Below are positions 11,113-59,484 of a DNA stretch of 64,000 bases, piece after piece. The stretch covers positions 2,037,271 through 2,101,270 of the forward strand of contig KV454011.1 of the NCBI GenBank assembly GCA_001661245.1. The letters are read 5' to 3'. This stretch comes from Pachysolen tannophilus NRRL Y-2460 (Eukaryota). Every line of letters begins with the position of its first letter. Within the stretch, counting starts at the first letter, position 1. Below the pieces are notes generated by a model. It had not been told where the DNA came from and ran no database searches. It was given only the letters and a program-made list of their open reading frames with translations. Both the position numbers and the translations under genes were made by a program.

Positions 11113-11236
11113 TTTTACTAATTTTTTTTTAAAATTTTTCTTTTTTCCATATATATGTACTAATAGTTTTCATTGTACTTTCAATGAAGCTGTCTTAGCA
11201 CACAAAAAATTAAAAATGCATTGAAACTACAAAACG

Positions 11237-11549: not shown

Positions 11550-11872
11550 CCTATATATATGTACTAATAGTTTTCATTGTACTTTCAATGAAGCTGTCTT
11601 AGCACACAAAAATTAAAAAATAGCATTGAAACTAACAAAACGAAAAAAAAAAAAAAAAAAAAACAAGACATAAACTAAACTAAAATAAACCTTCCCGTAA
11701 TAATAATGCAAAGCAAAGCAGTTAAATTAAATTTTGTATTTTTTTTAGTTTCTTTTGAAACTATGATAATCTGTTAATACCATTCCTGAGTGAAAAGCGA
11801 TAGATGATATTTGTTTTGTTGTTCCTATGATTGTGTTAAAATTTGGCTGGGTTGAAGTGAAGAATGTTACTA

Positions 11873-25386: not shown

Positions 25387-26211
25387 TATCAATATTAATA
25401 CAATAAACAAAAAAAAATTTTGCCTCTAAACGAATTTTTTAAATAAAACTTTATAACGTAGAAATGTTCTTCTACCTTGATAATAATAAAATATTATGAA
25501 AATCACAACTGAAAACTTCTAAAGATATTAGTATAAAAAATTCATAATCTCCATTACCATCTCTGGATTAAATCATAACAAAAACTTACAATTTTTATAT
25601 TCTATATCAACTCAACGTTAAAACATATAAAAAAAAGCAAAAAAAAAAAAAAAAAAAAAGTAAAAAAAGAAGAAAAGAAACTCAAAACTAAAGCCAATCT
25701 TTTAAAAAGCAAAAAGCAAAAAATAAATTGACAAAAGAAAACCACAACTATATCTGATGATGCTAAAGAATACTGGGTTGTAATATAGCTTTATATATTA
25801 ATTATTAATACAACTATCTTTTATAAAATATATATGATTTAACCGCTGCTTCAAGCTTTTAGTTCTGCTATCTCAAGCGAGACAAAAAAGATAAAAAAAA
25901 TTTTCTTGGATTTACCCGGACCAACGAGTTCTTCGTACAACACCCATTATCTTTGAGGAGTAAACGGCGAGATGATAGGTGGAAGGTGAAAGGTGAAAGA
26001 TTAATCAAGGTAGTAGAGGATATGTGTTGGACATCTTACAGAAGAGTTCGTTATTATGAGAAGATATAACATTAAAGATTGAAGAGATAGTTAGCTATGT
26101 GATTGTCTTTTTTTTTGCGTTTCTTCTTAGTATTTATATTTCGGTGCTTATATCCGAGCATCACCCCCTTTTCCTTGGTGTACCCCCTTTCGTAAAAAGA
26201 TTTCATCAATG

Positions 26212-29427: not shown

Positions 29428-30040
29428 CCTTACCGCCCTATCCAAAATCAAATAAATTGCAAACCCTTGAATAAATTGAAAGGGAAAAACTTCATATTTA
29501 CCATTTTTTACATAAAAATAGAGATCTATCTGAAAAAAAAAAATAGTGTACAGTGCGGCCTGCACTGTATGTTAGAAAGAAAGAAATCGAAAAACAAGTA
29601 GTGTCACAATCTCTAAATTCCTAAAACGGTAATTTTGTGTGTGTGTGTGTATTTTTTTGTTCTGATAAACAGTAGTGTGTCTAGTGACATAAACTGAAAA
29701 TAATGTTTTTTTTTCTTTTCTTTTTTATAGCTAGGGCTGTTGATTTTCAAGAATGGCCTTAGGCCTTAAAAGGTCATCTGCTGATCCAAAATTTATTCTC
29801 GGATTTTCTCGCTTGTTTTCCACCATTGTTAGCCGCCCGCTTTAGGCGGGACCTTTATGGGTCAAAAAAAAAATACTAATCTTTAATACCTTGAAAAATT
29901 TTTCACTATGAAGCCATCATACAACCTCAAAATAGCGATTATATATATAAACGGCTGAGTTTCTTGCTTTTTTTTTTTTTTTCTTTATTTCTTTTGCTTT
30001 TTATTTATTTAATAAAGTAATTGCTTTAGAATTTAAAAAA

Positions 30041-32176
30041 ATGACTCTTTCATATCAGGCTTCGAATGCTATTGTTTTTTTAACCTATGGGCTGTTATTA
30101 GTCTCAGGTGTTTCTTTAGCGTTATGGAAAAGAAATGATAAGACTTCATTTTTATGTTCTAACGGAACACAAAGAGCCTTACCTCTTTCATTAAATTTCA
30201 TTGCAAGTTGTTAGTAACTCTTCACCTTTTTTTTTTTTTTTTTTTTGATAGAAAAAAAAAAAAAAAACAAAAAAGAGTTCTAAAACGATAAGTATATTTA
30301 ATAGTATTTCATAGTAATCCTTCTTTTTAAATCATAGTTTGAATCAAGTTTATATAAAAAAACAAAAAACAATATTTCAAAAGCGGGTGTCGATAGAAAT
30401 TTATATTTCGTTGGCTGAGATTATACCGTTTGAACTCGAACAAGTTAATGCTTGCGTGAGGATTATTAAATATTGTTGAATATGCCCAAGTTTTGGCTTT
30501 TTTTTTCCTTTTCTTTCTTAAATGAAAGGAGAAAAAGTAAGGGGAAAATATTGCTAATGCTGAACTCATCACAGCGTAATGGGCAAGCTTACGCTTTATC
30601 TTTGTCCTTCTTTTTCTTTTTATTTTTTTTTTTTTCTTTCTTCCCAAAATTTTTTCCAAGATGAAAGTCATACTAACTTAATATATGGAATATAGCAATG
30701 GGTGCGGGTATTTTAACTACATATTCTCAAATTGCCAATGTTGCAGGTATTCATGGTTTACTTACATATACCATAACAGGTGCAATTCCAATTTTTTTGT
30801 TTTCTTTTTTCGGACCAATGATTAGACGGAGATGTCCAGATGGATTTGTATTAACCGAATGGGTGTACCATAGGTATGGTATCTTGACTATGTTATACTT
30901 GTCAGGTTTTACAATCTTGACGATGTTTTTATTTATGGTTTCAGAATTGGCTGCTATTTCGTTGGCCATTGAAGCTGTAACTGGTGTGAATACCACGGCT
31001 TCAACTGTTGTTGAATGTCTTGTTACTACAATCTATACTGCAATTGGTGGGTTTAAAGTTTCATTTTTAACCGATACTATTCAAGCTGCTTTTGTATTGT
31101 TAGTACTGATCATTGGTACTATTACTTATGGTACTCAGATACATATCGATCGTGAATTGTATAATGAAACGAAACCTCAAATGTTGGAAGCAAATAAATT
31201 GGGATGGCAATTGTTATATATTTTATTTGTTGCCATTGTTACCAATGACTGTTTTCTTTCAGGATTTTGGTTAAGAACATTTGCTGCAAAGACCGATAAA
31301 GATTTATTTATTGCCACTGGAATCGCCTCTATTGTTGCTGCCATTATTTGTACCTTGGTTGGATTACCTGGTATTTTAGGTGTCTGGACAGGTGATTTAA
31401 TAATTGGTGATGATAATGGAGAGAATGCTTTCTTTATCTTATTGGCAAAGATGGATAATTGGACTATAGGTGTCTTGCTTTTATTTTTCGTTGCAATTTC
31501 AACTTGTACTTTTGATTCATTACAAAGTGGAATGACCTCTACAATTTCTAATGATATTTTCAGAAATCGTATTCCTTTGGTTTATATTAGAATCATTGTA
31601 TGCATCATCATTGTTCCTTGTATCATTGTTGCATTAAAAGTTGCTGATGATGTCTTGGAAATATATCTTATTGCAGATTTGGTCAGTAGTGCCATTATCC
31701 CAACAATCTTTTTAGGATTGTCAGATTATTTCTTCTTCTTGACAGGTTGGGAAGTTATGACTGGTGGATTTGGTGCATTATTGGGTGTTTTCATCTTTGG
31801 AACCGTTTATTACGGAGACGCAAAAGATGGAGGCAAGTTATTATTAATCTGGAATGGTATGTACGATCCAGAAGACTGGGGTGCCTTTGGCGCTTTTGTC
31901 ATTGCTCCTTTTGCCAGCATTCTAATTGCATTCATCGTAGCTGCCATTAGAATCAGTGGGTTATACGTTTATTCAAGAATAACGGGGAAACCTTTCACAG
32001 CTTTGGATAAACCCCTGAAGCAAATTTATGTAGATGACAACTTTCTTGGAAATGAGGCTGGTCAAGTAGTAGTAGAAGAAGAGGAAGAAGAAGAAGAAGG
32101 GGACCAATTATGTCAGGAGCATTTTTCCCTTGCAAACCATGAGAGTGGTAGTATCAAGAAGGATTATGAGTCCTAG
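30041..32176 (+). CDS. DUR31: DUR31-like sodium:solute symporter, probable thiamine transporter; 2 exons (30041-30209, 30696-32176)
   Basis: Exon 1 MTLSYQASNAIVFLTYG...LNFIAS joins in frame (T+CA) to MGAGILTTY; intron with GTTAGT, TACTAAC (30671), TAG (30695); many TM segments; intronic TPP riboswitch. Confidence 0.85.
30368..30477 (+). ncRNA. TPP riboswitch aptamer (intronic)
   Basis: P1 aacaatattt/aaatattgtt; P2 gcgg/ccgt; P3 gtcga..gaaat-ttat-atttc..ttggc; conserved CTGAGA, ATACC, TGAAC; P4 ctc/gag; P5 caag-ttaatg-cttg; GCG bulge. Confidence 0.93.
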
Positions 32177-33711: not shown

Positions 33712-35802
33712 CTAAAGCTTCCCTAACCTATTTAAGACCTCTTTACTTTTCTGAAAATACTCTCTATTCTCTAAAGGCAGCCTGTGCAACATTTTTTCAA
33801 GAACTTCACTGTACGGAGCCTTCACCTCTTTATTTTGCATCTTGACAATATCAAAATAGTTATTATATATATCTCCATCATATGAACCCAATGCAGAATT
33901 GATAAAAGTGTCAGAAAATTTAAAAGCATCAGTCAACCCAATTACCTGAGTTCTCAAATGTTTATTTAATCTCTTAATTTCAAAGCTCAATTCCGATAAC
34001 TGTTCTGATGATATCACATTAAACTGTAAAAAAATTCCACTGAATTTATCAATATTAGATAGAGCAAACAATTTTGCCAAGTCAACTAGATATGGCTTAA
34101 TATTTCCTTTATCTGAGAGCTTATTAATACGATCAATAAACGCTTCCAACAAATAATAAATGGCGTTTAACTTTGACATGGTTACTTTTTCTGCACCAAA
34201 TAAATCCCAATTATTATTGTTTTCAGGTAATAATTGCACCACATAATCAGCTAACCTAATCAATACAGCTTTATAACAAATCAATAATACTTTTAAATCA
34301 AAATATTGGCCCAATATCACATCTTTTCCAACAAATTGTTTATAATCATTTATAAAAGATAAGTCACCTTCAATTTTCTTACCCTTTTGAGCCTTTATTA
34401 ATGCTTGTGATAAAGCTCTACCAACACTCATCGCCAAAACATTGTTATCACCTTCCCAAGTACACTGGACTACCCAATCGTTATAGGCTTTTCCAAAGCC
34501 AGAATACGAAGAATAACCATGGCCACCACAAGATTGCCGTGCCTCATCAATAAGATTTGCAGTAAACCAAGTACATGCCGATTTCAACATACCTGAAGAA
34601 ATGAAAATATTTTTCAATTTTTCAATTGCTTTCCCAATCTTGGTAAAATCTTCACTTCTGGATGCCAGTTCTAATATTTCAATTGTTAAAACATGTTCCT
34701 TTGTTAATCTTTCAGAACCACATGCCAATGCATAAGTAAAAGCCAACCATGGGATCAATCTCAACTGATGAAGCGGATAATCAATTAACTGTAATTCAGC
34801 ATTATCTTCTGAATTCTTTTCAGCAAATTGTCTTCTACCTACAGCATATCTTAGCGCCACGGTCATAAACCTTTGACTTGTTCTAAAAGACTCTCTCACC
34901 ATTGTGACCCTTCCTGTTAAGAGAGCGCCATATGCTAATTGTGCTAAAGGTGGTTCTATAACCTCTCCATCTTCATCAATTCTTGTGTATTTTGTTAACA
35001 TGTACTCTCTTGGAATAACAACACTCGAAAATTGGATCCAGCCATTATCAATACCATCTCTACCCATCTTTGCACCTATATCTCCTATGGCAACACCTGG
35101 GTTTAAATTATGGTCAGCGTCTCTTAATGGAACAACAAATGTCTTGACACCATGATCTTCATTATTGACTATTAACCTTGCATATACTACGGCATGTGTT
35201 GAAGAGTGCAGAGCACCTCCAATCCACCATTTCGTCGCACCAATATGAGGAGTATTTATAATGAATTGATTTGCATCTTTATCAAAAGTGGCTGTTGTCT
35301 CTAAACCTGCCACATTTGAACCATGTGCTAACTCAGTCATTGCAAAGCAACCATATACATTTTTAAGGAAAACCGCACCAGTATCAAAAGCCCAATATTG
35401 AAATTGTTCATCTGTACCATTACCTTTTAAAGCACTTAAAAATAAACCCAAATGAATTCCAATCCTAGTACCTAATTGTGGGTCTATAATTGTAAGCAAC
35501 CCCAATCTTTTTTGAAACTTGTCATAATCAGGTGCATCTCTCTCCATATACGTCGAAAGTTGAGCAATTTTCCGTGCTGTAACTTCTCTATGTTCTGACT
35601 TATTCAATTCATAATAACTTGAATCAACTTTTAAAATAGGATCTCTTTCAATCTGTTGCATTAATTCTTGAACAATTGCAGCTTCTTCGTATGAACCTTC
35701 CAAGAAAACATTTAAAAGATCAATATCAAAATCTATCAGTGTCCGTTCACTTTGAATTGAATTTGCAGGCCTTGGACCAACTTTGCTTTCTACTTGAGAC
35801 AT
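33712..35802 (-). CDS. POX1: Peroxisomal acyl-CoA oxidase
   Basis: GCFAMTELAHGSNV, KWWIGGA, KMGRDGIDNGWIQF, RQSCGGHGYS, CTWEGDNNV; C-terminal GKL (PTS1-like); ATG 35802. Confidence 0.93.
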   Translation of the reverse strand: MSQVESKVGPRPANSIQSERTLIDFDIDLLNVFLEGSYEEAAIVQELMQQIERDPILKVDSSYYELNKSEHREVTARKIAQLSTYMERDAPDYDKFQKRLGLLTIIDPQLGTRIGIHLGLFLSALKGNGTDEQFQYWAFDTGAVFLKNVYGCFAMTELAHGSNVAGLETTATFDKDANQFIINTPHIGATKWWIGGALHSSTHAVVYARLIVNNEDHGVKTFVVPLRDADHNLNPGVAIGDIGAKMGRDGIDNGWIQFSSVVIPREYMLTKYTRIDEDGEVIEPPLAQLAYGALLTGRVTMVRESFRTSQRFMTVALRYAVGRRQFAEKNSEDNAELQLIDYPLHQLRLIPWLAFTYALACGSERLTKEHVLTIEILELASRSEDFTKIGKAIEKLKNIFISSGMLKSACTWFTANLIDEARQSCGGHGYSSYSGFGKAYNDWVVQCTWEGDNNVLAMSVGRALSQALIKAQKGKKIEGDLSFINDYKQFVGKDVILGQYFDLKVLLICYKAVLIRLADYVVQLLPENNNNWDLFGAEKVTMSKLNAIYYLLEAFIDRINKLSDKGNIKPYLVDLAKLFALSNIDKFSGIFLQFNVISSEQLSELSFEIKRLNKHLRTQVIGLTDAFKFSDTFINSALGSYDGDIYNNYFDIVKMQNKEVKAPYSEVLEKMLHRLPLENREYFQKSKEVLNRLGKL

Positions 35803-36223
35803 CTTTAAATTCAAAAGCAATAACTCATCAATCAATCAATTACTATTAACCAACTTATAAAGTCAAAAAAGCAATATAATTAATATAATTAATATATATA
35901 TATATATATATATGTATATTATGGAAGTAAAATAGAGAAAACCTCACCTCACCTCATCATGGTATGCAAAGAAATAGAAAAAGCGGTTATAAAAAAAAAT
36001 AAAAAAACATCCCGCAGAAAAAGGCGGGGACATTCAAAGTCATCCTGGCGGAAAAATGTGGGAAATGGGCGGGAAATGGGAGGAAGACAGTAGAGTAGAT
36101 TTTTTTCCTCTCCCCTCATCACTCACTCACTGTCTACACTACAGGCAGTCATCATTCTTTTACATTTTTACATTGGTTAATGAATGATATAGCAATTAAA
36201 AGTTTATTCAGATAGCGTATACA

Positions 36224-41447: not shown

Positions 41448-42893
41448 TCAACACCCCTTTTCGGCGGCGGCAGCGGTTAGTCCAGCGGTAGCTAGTCCAG
41501 CGGTAGCTAGTCCAGCTGTGGTTAGTCCAGCTGTGTCGAGTATCCATTTTTCGAAAACCAGTAATTCCCAACGGATAGAGTTAAAGTATTCAAGGGTTAG
41601 GTTTTCTGATGTTTTCGTATCTAGGAGGTTGGATTTAGAGTTTGAGGAGATTTCAACAAAGCTTTCGGCGGTATTCCCAGTGTAGGTGTTTCCAGTGTTG
41701 GTGTTTCCAGTGTTGGCATTCCCGGTATTGACTATTTCAAAAGATTTTGCACTATTGATATTTGAATACTTGCTAGCACTATTAATGTTAATATCTAACG
41801 AGTTCAACAACTCTAGTTCTGCTGTTATGGATTCGTTTTTCTCTAAAGAGACTTTTAAGTTTTTGTTTAGTTTTTCATTTTTCAGTCTTAAACTTTTGAT
41901 ACTTGATTTTAATTTATTATTTTCTTCTTCAATTATGGAGTTAAATTCCTTCAATTCTTCAATTTCAAATTTATTTTTATTTCTAAAGAATTAAAAAAGT
42001 TAGTAATTTTTTTTTTTTTTGGTTTTTTTTTGGTTTTTTGGTTCTTGATTAACTTAACTTACATGATATCTAAGAATTTTCTATTTGAAGTTTCGTTATT
42101 TTCTCCAGAGCTTGTTGGCAGGTCATTTGATATAGAAAAAGCATTTTTGTCTTCAACAGAAAAACATGATTTATTCTTTTGGTCTCTTAATAGATGCTGA
42201 TGTAATAATTTATTTTCATTTTCGTCTTCCAAGAAAGAAATCAAATTAATACAAAAAGTTGAATATTCACAATGTATGGCAACTTCAATAAATAAGCGAC
42301 ATAACCAATAAAGTTGTGTAATCATCAGTTGAAATTCAAGAGATTCATCTTTTTTCTCATTATTAAAGTTTTGACAAAAATCTATTGGATTTGTTAGATC
42401 AACTTGTAAATTTTTCAAGTCAATTTTTTGTTCCAGGAAAAAATTATGAATTTTCAAAAGTTTTTTATAATTTAAATTTTTAATTATAAAAGTTGGTAAA
42501 TTACTTGAAGTATATTTCTCATAATCTTCATTGATTAAATTTATAAAAATTTGGAAAATGTTTGTATAATAACCTTCAGAATATATATATTCATCTTTAT
42601 AAATAGTTGGAGAAAGAACAGGTATATTTTGATTTATAATAACAAGTAAAATCTCATTGATTACAGAAGGAACAAAAAATTTAAAAGAACGTAATTTATC
42701 TTGCAATGAAATATTCAAAGTAGGGAAATGAGACAACTTAAGGTATAAGTTAGTATTTTAATTAACATCATTTTTTTGTAAAGTATAAAAATCTTACCCA
42801 TGTAATTGTTCCATTAATTAAGGTAATTTTCTCTTCAGTTGAAACATGACTTGAATATTCAATGCTATCAATATTGTTAGAAATCCCAGGCAT
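41448..42893 (-). CDS. Three-exon coiled-coil protein, possibly a divergent Hook-domain protein (exons 42893-42798, 42736-42063, 41982-41448)
   Basis: Intron 1 GTAAGA/TACTAAC/AAG (phase 0) and intron 2 GTAAGT/TACTAAC/TAG (phase 2) join the listed ORFs 42059-42736 and 41448-41954 with an upstream 32-codon exon in frame. Confidence 0.75.
41472..41536. repeat. 15-bp coding tandem repeat, about 4 copies (TAGL[T/A])
   Basis: tagtccagc(g/t)gt.. units; a second 15-bp array (GNTNT-like) lies at 41671-41729. Confidence 0.85.
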
Positions 42894-44966: not shown

Positions 44967-45313
44967 CTATGGTTTCTGTTGTTTCTGTCCTTGAACTGGC
45001 TGAACCATTTTTTCAATCATTGACATCCTTGTTAGTAATTGAGGTTTATTCAACACTATACTCAAATGATGTAGTTCTGGATTATGCATTACCATATTAG
45101 CATAAGTATCCCTATATACATTATCCATCCATTCTTCTCTGGTTGTATCGGTATTCCCCAATCCAATATATTTAGTCTTTAAGTTTTCATACAACTGTTG
45201 TTCCCTTACTTTATCAGCCTACAAAAAAAAAAAAAAGTTGTTAGTAACAAAAATTTATTCATTAAAAAGAAAGAAAAAGAGCATCAGCTCAATTTGAATC
45301 TATCACTCACCAT
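44967..45313 (-). CDS. YSF3: SF3b complex subunit 5 (SF3b10); exon 1 is the ATG only
   Basis: ATG, intron 45310-45219 (GTGAGT, TACTAAC, TAG), then ADKVREQQLYENLKTKYIGLGNTDTTREEW..YRDTY. Confidence 0.85.
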
Positions 45314-55946: not shown

Positions 55947-56466
55947 ATGATGGAGCATAACAATAGTGGTAATAATTATAGTAACAGTAACAGTAATAGT
56001 AATTACGGCGGTTATAATAATAGAGTAAGTATAATTTAATAGTTTGATATTATTTGAGAAATTAAATACTAACAGATGGGGGGTTTTTCTCTTTTTTTTT
56101 TCTTCTGAATAGCAAAGAAATAGTAATAATAGTAATAATAATAATAATAATAATAGAAGACAAGAAAGGAAGCCTGATGGTCCAAAAAGAGAAGCAATCT
56201 TAGATTTGGCTAAATACCAAGATCAAAAGATTATAGTTGAATTTGTTGGTGGACGTCAAGTTATAGGTGTATTAAAAGGTTATGATCAATTGATGAATTT
56301 AGTCTTGGATGAAGTCGAGGAAAATTTGAGAGATGAAAGTGGGAAGTTATTGGATGAAACAAGAAGCTTGGGTTTAGTAATTGTTAGAGGCCCATTGCTT
56401 TTGACTTTATCACCAGTTGATGGAACTGAGGTTATAGATAATCCATTTGCAAATACTGAAGAGTAA
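55947..56466 (+). CDS. LSM7: Sm-like protein Lsm7; 2 exons (55947-56024, 56113-56466)
   Basis: Intron GTAAGT, TACTAAC, TAG in phase 0; PKREAILDLAKY, GVLKGYDQLMNLVLD, LGLVIVRG, NPF. Confidence 0.92.
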
Positions 56467-58934: not shown

Positions 58935-59125
58935 AACATATAACCAAACAGCCAAACAAAAAAAAAAACAAAAAGAAACCTTCTAGGACTCTATGTTCTA
59001 TCAATTGATCTTATAACTTCTTTAATATAACTATACATAGATAGATAGATTCCTTTTGGTTTTGGCGTTTACCCTTATTTCTACTGGTAAACAAAAACAA
59101 AAAAAAAAATAAAAAAAAAAAAATA

Positions 59126-59215
59126 AGCGAATTCTGTGGATCGAACACAGGACCTTTAGATTGCAACGCTTAGCACGACTTCAGTCTAACGCTCTCCCAA
59201 CTGAGCTAAATCCGC
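59126..59215 (-). tRNA. tRNA-Phe(GAA) with 17-nt intron (59162-59178)
   Basis: GCGGATTTAGCTCAGTTGGGAGAGCG TTAGA CTGAAG [intron] ATCTAA AGGTCCTGTGTTCGATCCACAGAATTCGC, followed by a poly-T terminator. Confidence 0.97.
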
Positions 59216-59484
59216 CTCGGAGATGGACGATTGCAGGCGGATTCCGCACTATACGTTAGGAAGTGTAGAATTTTTTCAACGAAGATACCATATGATAACC
59301 ATTTGAACCAGGGAACAATTTTGTATAAAGATAGAAATATTTTAATTTTGTAAAGAAAAAAGAAAGAGAGAGAGAGAGAGCTAGAGCTAAAGAGTATTAA
59401 TCAGAGCATATTTAAATCAAACTAAGAAGAAAAAGGAAAAGGAAAAGGAAAAGGAAAAGAAAGAAAAAAAACTCCATATGTTGG

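What the first reader, a model, noticed from the sequence alone, without database searches (positions are those of the whole stretch)
30368..30477. Complete TPP riboswitch inside the intron of a DUR31-like transporter
Seen: all aptamer elements are present in order: a 10-bp P1 (30368-77/30468-77), P2/P3, the CUGAGA pyrimidine sensor, AUACC, P4/P5 and the GCG bulge. It lies in a 486-nt intron whose first exon the ORF track missed. Established: TPP riboswitches control splicing in fungi, and intronic riboswitches are described for the DUR31/NCU01977 family; S. cerevisiae has none. Inference: this gene is a thiamine-related transporter regulated by TPP-dependent alternative splicing. The class is known, but this instance would be invisible to ORF-only annotation.
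Basis: partly seen in the sequence, partly recalled or inferred. Interest (0 to 1): 0.85.

Follow-up and report, generated by a model that had tools for sequence, protein, structure and literature searches.

The report
Known thiamine riboswitch in yeast intron
A real thiamine-pyrophosphate-sensing RNA sits in the first intron of a yeast thiamine-transporter gene (DUR31), but this exact sequence was already printed in a 2018 survey, so the finding is correct and ordinary.

Summary
Rfam's TPP model (RF00059) hits window 30373-30479 (+) at 58.6 bits, above its 54.3-bit gathering cut-off. A perfect 10-bp P1 (30368-77/30468-77) closes the fold. The aptamer lies in a 486-nt intron (30210-30695) that splits a DUR31/NCU01977-type sodium:solute symporter. 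Exon 1 (30041-30209) aligns with Dur31 N-termini. The public gene call covers exon 2 only (492 aa).

It is not new. The ungapped 'P.tannophilus' row of S2 Fig in Donovan et al. 2018 equals these 107 nt by my reading. Their table lists a 107-nt DUR31 riboswitch for that species.

What I add is a candidate expression platform. A 28-bp helix pairs 30292-30322 with 30458-30485, the 3' strands of P4 and P1. It beats the aptamer fold by about 12-13 kcal/mol in prediction. It is rare against shuffles (0 of 200) and against native placements (6 of 1455). It was not clearly found in four relatives. This resembles the Neurospora alpha-alpha' mechanism and is untested. Interest is low.

The parts
30041..30209 (+). 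DUR31 exon 1: ATG at 30041, 56 codons plus the first base of a split Ser codon
   Evidence: Translation and phase. Alignment to the N-termini of nine full-length Dur31 homologues, 53-67% identity, ending at the shared NFIAS. No Pfam hit on its own.
30210..30695 (+). Riboswitch-bearing intron, 486 nt, 26.5% G+C
   Evidence: The same intron position (after ...NFIAS plus 1 nt) is seen in loci L001, L002, L006, L007 and L008.
30210..30216 (+). 5' splice site GUUAGU(A). It is non-consensus at position 3 and is the exact reverse complement of the branch-point heptamer.
   Evidence: It is the only GT whose phase keeps the conserved NFIAS-S/A-MG junction. Four candidate short introns elsewhere in the window start GTAAGT or GTGAGT (unverified). 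Pairing of 30210-16 with 30671-77 appears in the predicted folds.
30212..30214 (+). In-frame UAG that ends translation after 58 codons if the intron is retained or a downstream donor is used
   Evidence: frame 29951..30214 ends ...NFIASC*. Donovan 2018 report a stop after 58 amino acids in the unspliced C. parapsilosis mRNA.
30216..30279 (+). U20 / A16 hairpin directly after the 5' splice site (AACUCUUCACC-U20-GAUAG-A16-CAAAAAAGAGUU)
   Evidence: Inverted repeat I8, arms 30216-43/30252-79, 28 nt, 82% complementary. The A-run can also pair with the pyrimidine tract at 30596-30649 (I2, I3), so its partner is uncertain.
30292..30322 (+). alpha: candidate anti-P1/anti-P4 strand. It holds the donor-like GUAUAU (30292), GUAUUU (30304) and GUAAUC (30314), none with G at position 5.
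   Evidence: RNAduplex against 30457-86: -26.4 kcal/mol versus -11.1 +/- 2.0 in shuffles, 0 of 200 as good. In the native-geometry control 6 of 1455 placements were as good, and 0 of 395 AT-rich ones. It forms in the MFE and centroid of 30285-30492.
30368..30477 (+). TPP riboswitch aptamer, from P1 5' strand to P1 3' strand
   Evidence: RF00059, 58.6 bits, gathering score 54.3. Fold. By my reading of the gapped row, identical to the printed P.tannophilus row of S2 Fig, Donovan 2018.
30458..30485 (+). alpha': P4 3' strand, J4/1, P1 3' strand and 8 nt beyond. It pairs either inside the aptamer or with alpha.
   Evidence: Pair probabilities with alpha are 0.59-0.999 in the unconstrained ensemble, and P1 pair probabilities are 0.0.
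30671..30677 (+). Branch point UACUAAC
   Evidence: It lies 18 nt upstream of the acceptor.
30694..30695 (+). 3' splice site AG (AUAUAG|CA AUG)
   Evidence: The phase agrees with the exon-2 frame and with homologues.
30696..32176 (+). DUR31 exon 2, through the stop codon
   Evidence: Pfam SSF PF00474, E 1.1e-07. 56-69% identity to yeast Dur31-type proteins over 85-100% of the query. Two CTG codons read Ala under table 26, and that translation was given the id of the public protein P0001.

Best explanation
This is a genuine TPP riboswitch in the first intron of the DUR31 (NCU01977-type) thiamin transporter gene of an AT-rich budding yeast. The published figure row it matches is labelled P. tannophilus.

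Shown here: the aptamer, the gene structure and the homology.

Inferred from experiments on orthologues (C. parapsilosis, O. polymorpha, N. crassa): it is an OFF switch. With little TPP the 486-nt intron is removed from donor 30210 and a 549-aa transporter is made. With ample TPP productive splicing falls, and transcripts that keep intron sequence stop at UAG 30212-14 after 58 codons.

My own inference about the platform, about 0.45 likely given that the switch is real: the 3' strands of P4 and P1 plus 8 further nt (alpha', 30458-85) can leave the aptamer. They then form a 28-bp helix, with one 3-nt bulge, with alpha (30292-30322), which lies 82 nt downstream of the donor.

The outer 8 bp (30292-99/30478-85) persist in both predicted folds and stack on P1. 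The choice between P1/P4 and alpha-alpha' would therefore be a strand exchange that TPP binding biases towards the aptamer.

By analogy with Neurospora, the alpha-alpha' state favours use of the true donor, and the TPP-bound state frees alpha and lowers productive splicing.
For: Aptamer:
- RF00059 at 58.6 bits, above the 54.3-bit gathering score, full-length match.
- 10-bp P1 and the full P2-P5 architecture in the single-sequence MFE.

Host gene:
- SSF domain.
- 56-69% identity to yeast Dur31-type proteins.
- Exon 1 aligned to Dur31 N-termini.

Conservation:
- An nhmmer profile of the aptamer core hit 65 of 80 metagenome DUR31-like loci, always on the sense strand upstream of exon 2.
- Rfam at E<=1 hit 7 of 11 yeast-like loci. 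The 4 without a hit have no intron or only a gap of about 80 nt.
- P1 differs in sequence yet stays paired in WIN, L001, L002, L006, L007, L008, L010, L027, L034, L046 and L050.

Literature:
- Thiamin lowers the spliced DUR31 isoform in C. parapsilosis and O. polymorpha.
- The intron alone confers the response in S. cerevisiae.
- dur31 deletions resist pyrithiamine (PMC5997356).
- Alpha-alpha' pairing promotes use of S1 in NCU01977 (PMC3597705).

Platform:
- The MFE and centroid of 30285-30492 use alpha-alpha' (-45.4 kcal/mol, z -3.08, 0 of 200 shuffles as good).
- The aptamer-enforced fold is -33.1 kcal/mol. In a 611-nt context the values are -132.6 and -120.3.
- Duplex -26.4 versus -11.1 +/- 2.0 in shuffles, 0 of 200 as good.
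- 6 of 1455 native placements were as good, and 0 of 395 AT-rich ones.
Against: - No RNA evidence for this locus. Splicing, its response to thiamin and even use of donor 30210 are unobserved.
- J4/5 has A where the consensus has U; the effect on binding is unknown.
- The alpha-alpha' advantage of about 12-13 kcal/mol is as large as, or larger than, what ligand binding usually supplies. At equilibrium the aptamer would hardly form, so the model needs kinetic, co-transcriptional control. Nearest-neighbour prediction on AU-rich RNA with long homopolymer runs is also unreliable (one search shows many competing A/U pairings).
- The same duplex test in relatives with room for an alpha gave 6/200 (L010), 38/200 (L001), 39/200 (L007, which fits the published description of the C. 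parapsilosis intron) and 165/200 (L002). In L006 and L008 the aptamer starts about 25 nt after the donor. The element is therefore not shown to be conserved.
- Predicted accessibility of the donor (0.27 free, 0.20 with the aptamer enforced) and of the branch point (0.32, 0.58) does not point to an OFF switch.
- Donovan et al. thought Neurospora-like long-range pairing unlikely in the shorter yeast introns.
Confidence: 0.8

Rival explanations
1. Same riboswitch and same OFF outcome, but the platform works as in NMT1 or 'Type III'. Without TPP the aptamer's 3' half masks alternative donors inside alpha (GUAUAU 30292, GUAUUU 30304, GUAAUC 30314). With TPP they are freed and compete with the weak true donor, giving mRNAs that keep 82-104 nt of intron and the UAG at 30212-14.
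For: - The alpha-alpha' helix covers all three GU sites.
- Their mean unpaired probability rises from about 0.25 to 0.47 when the aptamer is enforced.
- C. parapsilosis has a second, non-consensus donor (GTTGGA) that is used.
- Mukherjee et al. 2018 propose this scheme for internal-intron riboswitches (PMC5882874, section 7 part 1).
Against: - None of the three sites has G at position 5. The true donor and the four other candidate introns in the window all have it.
- In C. parapsilosis use of the second donor was not clearly thiamin-dependent, and O. polymorpha has a single donor.
- The intron (486 nt) lies outside the 200-400 nt given for Type III.
Confidence: 0.2
2. Same riboswitch, but alpha is irrelevant. 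The TPP-bound aptamer, or its absence, changes splicing efficiency directly, through overall intron architecture or through the donor/branch-point pairing, and the outcome is simple intron retention.
For: - In C. parapsilosis and O. polymorpha the main thiamin effect is more unspliced RNA, and deleting the aptamer abolished splicing altogether.
- Donor GUUAGUA and branch point UACUAAC are exact complements and pair in both predicted folds.
- Alpha-like elements were not detected in most relatives.
Against: - It leaves unexplained a 28-bp complement to exactly the P4/P1 3' strands that is rare by two controls.
- The donor/branch-point helix is predicted in both states, so it does not by itself make a switch.
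Confidence: 0.2
3. The aptamer is a decaying relic that no longer binds TPP or no longer regulates anything.
For: - J4/5 U-to-A change at a position the Rfam consensus writes in capitals.
- No expression data.
- Several yeasts (C. albicans, L. elongisporus) have lost the DUR31 riboswitch.
Against: - The score is above gathering with every other conserved position intact and a perfect 10-bp P1.
- The same A variant is present in 5 of 65 other DUR31 aptamer cores.
- Lineages that lost the riboswitch also lost or shortened the intron, whereas here a 486-nt intron is kept in a genome whose other candidate introns are about 60-90 nt.
Confidence: 0.05

Closest known systems
DUR31 intron TPP riboswitch of budding yeasts (Donovan et al. 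2018, PLoS Genet, PMC5997356)
   Same: - Same gene family and the same intron position, after ...NFIAS plus one base.
- The aptamer is on the sense strand.
- A premature stop after 58 codons in unspliced RNA.
- TACTAAC branch point.
- By my reading, the 107-nt sequence is identical to the row 'P.tannophilus' in their S2 Fig, and their S1 data set lists a 107-nt DUR31 riboswitch for that species.
   Different: As an instance, nothing differs. They tested C. parapsilosis and O. polymorpha, not this species, and state that the mechanism is unknown. The intron here is longer (486 versus 351 nt) and its donor is non-consensus (GTTAGT versus GTATGT).
Neurospora crassa NCU01977 riboswitch with long-distance alpha-alpha' pairing (Li & Breaker 2013, NAR, PMC3597705)
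   Same: - Orthologous gene.
- The aptamer lies in an intron that splits the coding region.
- A strand downstream of the first donor is complementary to the 3' shoulder of P1 and competes with P1.
- TPP represses productive splicing.
   Different: - Alpha here is AU-rich and lacks the RGCGGYRRY consensus.
- It also covers the P4 3' strand.
- The separation is about 135 nt, not about 530.
- Alpha is 82 nt from the donor and alpha' is 210 nt from the acceptor, where Neurospora-type introns commonly have under 60 nt on both sides.
- No well-formed alternative donors.
N. crassa NMT1 / 'Type I and III' riboswitches, in which the aptamer masks a second donor (Cheah et al. 2007, recalled and not read; described in PMC5882874 section 7 and PMC3597705 Results)
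   Same: An aptamer strand pairs with intron sequence that holds GU sites upstream of the aptamer. A stop codon lies between the first donor and those sites.
   Different: The GU sites here are poor donors (no G5). The riboswitch is in a coding-region intron, not a 5' UTR intron with a uORF. The intron length lies between the published Type II and Type III ranges.

Membership tests
TPP riboswitch aptamer (Rfam RF00059) | Covariance-model score at or above the curated gathering score, over the full model | tested here: met
   58.6 bits against 54.3, E 6.3e-09, model positions 1-105 of 105, + strand.
TPP riboswitch aptamer (Rfam RF00059) | P1 helix closing a three-way junction with the P2/P3 and P4/P5 arms | tested here: met
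   The single-sequence MFE and centroid give P1 (10 bp), P2, P3, P4 and P5. P1 differs in sequence but stays paired in at least ten related loci.
TPP riboswitch aptamer (Rfam RF00059) | Conserved unpaired nucleotides: CUGAGA in J3/2, ACC, and GA..GCG around P5. That these are the ligand-contacting parts is recalled, not taken from a call. | tested here: met
   All are present in the model alignment. The exception is J4/5, which reads GAA instead of GAU; this variant is also found in L053, L058, L075, L077 and L079 (5 of 65 other cores).
TPP riboswitch aptamer (Rfam RF00059) | Binds TPP | not testable with these tools
   Needs in-line probing or ITC.
Fungal DUR31/NCU01977 intronic riboswitch | The host gene is a Dur31-clade SSF transporter | tested here: met
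   PF00474. 56-69% identity to the listed yeast homologues, among them a C. albicans protein (P0047). N-terminal alignment. 65 of 80 related loci carry the same aptamer core. No tree against the Dur3 clades was built.
Fungal DUR31/NCU01977 intronic riboswitch | The aptamer is on the sense strand inside the 5'-proximal coding-region intron, with a premature stop if the intron is unspliced | tested here: met
   Intron 30210-30695, aptamer 30368-30477, UAG 30212-14. The same intron position is seen in L001, L002, L006, L007 and L008.
Fungal DUR31/NCU01977 intronic riboswitch | Thiamin-dependent change in splicing | not testable with these tools
   No RNA holder was listed for this sequence.
Neurospora-type alpha-alpha' expression platform | A strand near the first donor complementary to the 3' shoulder of P1, mutually exclusive with P1 | tested here: met
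   30292-30322 pairs with 30458-30485, 28 bp. 0 of 200 shuffles and 6 of 1455 native placements were as good. It replaces P1 and P4 in the MFE and centroid.
Neurospora-type alpha-alpha' expression platform | Alpha core consensus RGCGGYRRY | tested here: not met
   Alpha reads GUAUAUUUAAUAGUAUUUCAUAGUAAUCCUU and has no such motif. By contrast the 3' flanks of many other metagenome loci read GUGCUGCCGC.
Neurospora-type alpha-alpha' expression platform | Commonly under 60 nt from S1 to alpha and under 60 nt from alpha' to the 3' splice site | tested here: not met
   82 nt and 210 nt. A predicted hairpin (30216-79) could shorten the first distance, but that is prediction only.
'Type III' / NMT1-like masking of a second donor | A usable second donor between the stop codon and the aptamer, paired with the aptamer when TPP is absent | tested here: inconclusive
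   GU sites at 30292, 30304 and 30314 lie in the helix but lack G5. Their use cannot be checked without RNA.

The most novel reading that the evidence does not exclude
The budding-yeast DUR31 riboswitch, whose mechanism Donovan et al. call unknown, works in this species by a toehold-mediated strand exchange. An always-formed 8-bp helix (30292-99/30478-85) stacks on P1. From it an upstream near-copy of the P1 5' strand (by eye, 30300-14 matches 30368-83 at 12 of 15 positions) invades P1 and then P4 unless TPP locks the aptamer. This would be a compact AU-rich counterpart of the Neurospora alpha-alpha' platform. It acts on an intron whose weak donor GUUAGUA is the exact complement of its own branch point.
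Probability: 0.35. Interest if true: 0.45.

Novelty: already known. Interest (0 to 1): 0.2.

Why it matters
As a finding it matters little. The class was described in 2007-2018, and this very sequence is in a published supplementary figure.

Two small points of use remain. First, the public gene model for this locus appears to be the 492-aa exon-2 product, which lacks the first 57 codons. The annotation could therefore be corrected to 549 aa, with three CTG codons read as Ala if the organism uses table 26.

Second, the mechanism of the yeast DUR31 riboswitches is still open. This intron offers an unusually clean, statistically rare competitor helix to the P1/P4 3' strands, and it could be tested with a handful of reporter mutants of the kind already used for C. 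parapsilosis.

Tried and rejected
- No RNA holder listed: the look-up of sequencing runs returned 4 runs from one study, none on record as RNA. I laid no reads, so splicing could not be observed.
- The window's whole genome is not held, so other TPP riboswitches of the same genome, such as THI4, could not be looked for.
- Earlier scan notes: none for this genome.
- Rfam at gathering on 40 of the 80 related loci gave only 2 TPP hits (2 of 20, 0 of 20), although most carry the aptamer core. Long P3 insertions push fungal examples under the cut-off, so gathering-level absence is not evidence of absence. The remaining 40 loci were not run through Rfam.
- The MAFFT alignment of 8 aptamers misaligned P1 and P3. 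I therefore built no covariance model and ran no count of structure pairs.
- In place of that, the cognate versus non-cognate P1-flank test covered only 32 of 66 sequences (25 distinct). Its P2 anchor was visibly wrong for many non-yeast loci. The result was mean -9.1 versus -6.8 kcal/mol, Mann-Whitney p 0.005.
- First alpha test with a wide 52-nt probe: window 1 of 300 shuffles as good. The relatives were not significant: L001 19/300, L002 270/300, L006 116/300, L007 154/300, L008 130/300, L010 131/300. The native-geometry control for that wide probe gave 18 of 596 as good.
- Narrow probe against sequence downstream of the aptamer: nothing notable in the window (58/200) or in relatives.
- Predicted accessibility of donor and branch point with and without the aptamer enforced was ambiguous.
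- Premature polyadenylation inside the intron (UAUAUA at about 30350 followed by A-runs) was considered. I dropped it for lack of any precedent in the fungal papers read and of any test available here.
- A search of papers for 'riboswitch' plus 'Pachysolen' found one unrelated paper. The species appears only in the supplements of Donovan 2018.
Full report
**The observation**

A covariance-model scan of the whole 64-kb window against Rfam 15 returned two hits above gathering. One is a tRNA. The other is RF00059 (TPP riboswitch) at 30373-30479 on the + strand, at 58.6 bits against a curated cut-off of 54.3 and E 6.3e-09. It matches model positions 1-105 of 105 without truncation.

Folding 30360-30485 alone gives the textbook three-way junction:
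- P2: 30381-86/30426-31.
- P3: an extended helix, 30389-30400/30405-15.
- CUGAGA: 30415-20.
- P4: 30435-38/30457-60.
- P5: 30441-45/30450-54.
- A C-G bulge at 30455-56.

The single-sequence energy is only modestly better than shuffles (z -2.0, 4 of 200 as good). The weight of evidence is therefore the model score, not the energy.

One conserved position departs from the consensus. J4/5 reads GAA where the consensus, and all seven yeast-type relatives I aligned, read GAU. The same A occurs in 5 of 65 other DUR31-type aptamer cores (L053, L058, L075, L077, L079), so it is a tolerated natural variant of this subfamily.

**The gene**

- Exon 2 (30696-32176) carries a sodium:solute symporter domain (PF00474). 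It is 56-69% identical to a long list of budding-yeast proteins of the Dur31 type.
- The frame upstream, from ATG 30041, encodes 56 residues that align end to end with the N-termini of nine full-length homologues (53-67% identity). The alignment stops exactly at the shared ...LNFIAS.
- Joining 30209 to 30696 makes a Ser codon (T|CA) where relatives have Ala (G|CN). It opens a 549-aa frame.
- The intron is 30210-30695, 486 nt and 26.5% G+C, with TACTAAC at 30671-77 and AG at 30694-95.
- Retaining it stops translation at UAG 30212-14 after 58 codons. Donovan et al. report the same number for the unspliced C. parapsilosis mRNA.
- The protein held in the public collection for this locus is the 492-aa exon-2-only product.

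**Relatives**

A scan of metagenome contigs with a Dur31 alignment gave 80 loci.

- An nhmmer profile of the aptamer core (CUGAGA to GAGGA) hit 65 of the 80, always on the coding strand upstream of exon 2.
- Of the 15 loci without a hit, 10 are cut off within 100 nt upstream of exon 2 or inside it.
- The other five are L003, L005, L009, L011 and L018. They have exon 1 contiguous with exon 2 or separated by a gap of only about 80-140 nt.
- Rfam itself, at E<=1, found the aptamer in 7 of 11 yeast-like loci. It missed exactly the four intron-less or short-intron ones.
- At gathering level Rfam found only 2 of 20 and 0 of 20. This is a reminder that fungal aptamers with long P3 often fall under the cut-off.
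- In L001, L002, L006, L007 and L008 the intron sits at the same codon.
- P1 has a different sequence in each of these loci yet stays complementary.

**Whether it is new**

It is not. Donovan et al. 2018 (PMC5997356) is the key paper. I read its abstract, Results, Discussion, the list of supplements, parts 1 and 2 of 3 of the S1 data set, and passages of supplementary files 2 and 5. The paper establishes four things:
- TPP riboswitches are widespread in DUR31 introns of budding yeasts outside the Saccharomycetaceae.
- Dur31 transports thiamin.
- The C. parapsilosis intron alone confers thiamin-repressed splicing in S. cerevisiae.
- S. cerevisiae has neither the gene nor any riboswitch.

Their S1 data set lists a DUR31 riboswitch of 107 nt on the plus strand of a large scaffold for Pachysolen tannophilus, translation table 26. 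The row 'P.tannophilus' of their S2 Fig, read without its gaps, is letter for letter the window's 30373-30479. I compared the two by eye from the gapped row.

Other details fit that species:
- The window is 30.8% G+C.
- A CTG codon in the acyl-CoA oxidase gene aligns with Ala in both Yarrowia structures.
- The table-26 translation of exon 2 was given the id of the public protein P0001, which has Ala at both CTG codons.

The instance is thus a published Infernal prediction. The paper's experiments were on C. parapsilosis and O. polymorpha, not on this species.

**How it probably works**

Shown by others:
- In two yeasts thiamin lowers the spliced DUR31 isoform and raises unspliced RNA. Deleting the aptamer abolishes splicing. 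The authors call the mechanism unknown and doubt Neurospora-like long-range pairing.
- In N. crassa NCU01977 a strand (alpha) near the first donor pairs with the 3' shoulder of P1 (alpha') when TPP is absent and promotes use of that donor. This was proven with compensatory mutants (PMC3597705, Results).

Looking for such a competitor here, I found that 30292-30322 is complementary to 30458-30485. That stretch comprises the P4 3' strand, the joining bases, the whole P1 3' strand and eight further bases. The helix has 11 + 17 pairs with a 3-nt bulge.

Evidence for this helix:
- The tool's MFE and centroid for 30285-30492 both adopt it while keeping P2, P3 and P5 (-45.4 kcal/mol, z -3.08, 0 of 200 shuffles as good).
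- Forcing the aptamer costs about 12-13 kcal/mol.
- The duplex is -26.4 kcal/mol against -11.1 +/- 2.0 for dinucleotide shuffles of the target (0 of 200 as good).
- Among native placements of the same geometry in the window, 6 of 1455 were as good, and none of the 395 AT-rich ones.
- The outer eight pairs persist even when the aptamer is enforced, and they stack on P1. By eye, 30300-14 resembles the P1 5' strand 30368-83 at 12 of 15 positions. This looks like a toehold and invading strand for strand exchange.

I therefore propose an alpha-alpha'-like platform. Without TPP the long helix forms and the true donor is used. With TPP, P1 and P4 hold alpha', alpha is freed and productive splicing falls.

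**Caveats**

- There is no RNA evidence.
- The predicted energy gap is so large that the switch would have to be kinetic.
- The intron is full of A- and U-runs with many alternative pairings.
- Predicted donor and branch-point accessibilities do not behave as an OFF switch would require.
- The same test in relatives with room for an alpha gave 6/200 (L010), 38/200 (L001), 39/200 (L007) and 165/200 (L002). In L006 and L008 the aptamer starts about 25 nt after the donor. Conservation is thus not shown.
- Alpha lacks the Neurospora consensus RGCGGYRRY, and the distances to the splice sites (82 and 210 nt) exceed the <60 nt common there. It works like that platform, if at all, without being a member of it.
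- The main rival is NMT1-like masking of the donor-like GUAUAU, GUAUUU and GUAAUC inside alpha. All three lack G5.

**Verdict**

The class and the instance are already known, and interest is low. The residual value is a corrected gene model and a concrete, testable competitor helix for a riboswitch family whose yeast mechanism is still open.

Noticed in passing
window 30210-30216 and 30671-30677: The intron's donor GUUAGUA is the exact reverse complement of its branch point UACUAAC. A mirror-image 'intron' was flagged on the minus strand for the same reason. The two pair in both predicted folds. Positions 3 and 4 of the donor are the two that depart from the usual GUAAGU/GUAUGU, and they are what makes the match perfect. 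Whether this is chance (roughly 1 in 16 for those two positions) or a self-inhibitory helix is unexplained.
   Followed up: partly
window 30216-30279 and 30596-30649: A U20 run and an A16 run directly after the donor can form a hairpin. The A-run can instead pair with the long pyrimidine tract just upstream of the branch point (45-nt arms, 76% complementary), which would bring donor and branch point together.
   Followed up: partly
window 33715-35835 (-), codon 209; 30041-30208 (+), codon 18: CTG codons sit where relatives have Ala. WWIGGA[CTG]HS aligns with WWIGGAAHS/T in two Yarrowia acyl-CoA oxidase structures. The DUR31 exon-1 CTG aligns with Ala in 3 of 9 homologues, Phe in 5 and Leu in 1. 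In all, 90 of 12,516 codons in 23 ORFs are CTG. This fits nuclear code table 26.
   Followed up: partly
window 59125-59216 (-): A tRNA gene with a 20-nt intron (Rfam 55.4 bits). ARAGORN could not name the anticodon. The printed arms look like tRNA-Phe(GAA) to me from memory.
   Followed up: no
window 11149-11217 and 11553-11621: A 69-nt direct repeat (97% identical) with 404-nt spacing, in the gap between the Vps36-like and Mo25-like genes.
   Followed up: no
window 25519-25589 (-), 41983-42062 (-), 45219-45310 (-), 56025-56112 (+): Four candidate short introns (about 70-90 nt) with GTAAGT or GTGAGT donors and TACTAAC/T branch points. They were not checked against coding frames. They suggest that the 486-nt DUR31 intron and its GTTAGT donor are atypical for this genome.
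   Followed up: no
window 29637-29680: A (GT)n microsatellite about 360 nt upstream of the DUR31 start codon.
   Followed up: no
L007:2148-2498: This metagenome locus has a 351-nt DUR31 intron with donor GTATGT, an internal GTTGGA and a 99-nt aptamer. That matches the published description of the C. parapsilosis intron. A long GC-rich hairpin (CAAAGUGGGGUGGUGG...CCACCACCCACUUUG) fills most of the space between the aptamer and the branch point.
   Followed up: partly
L012-L017, L037-L045 and many others: Most non-yeast DUR31 loci have the aptamer core ending about 80-140 nt before exon 2, and 3' flanks reading GUGCUGCCGC. This is the complement of the RGCGGYRRY alpha consensus of Li & Breaker, so these look like the Neurospora-type architecture.
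   Followed up: no
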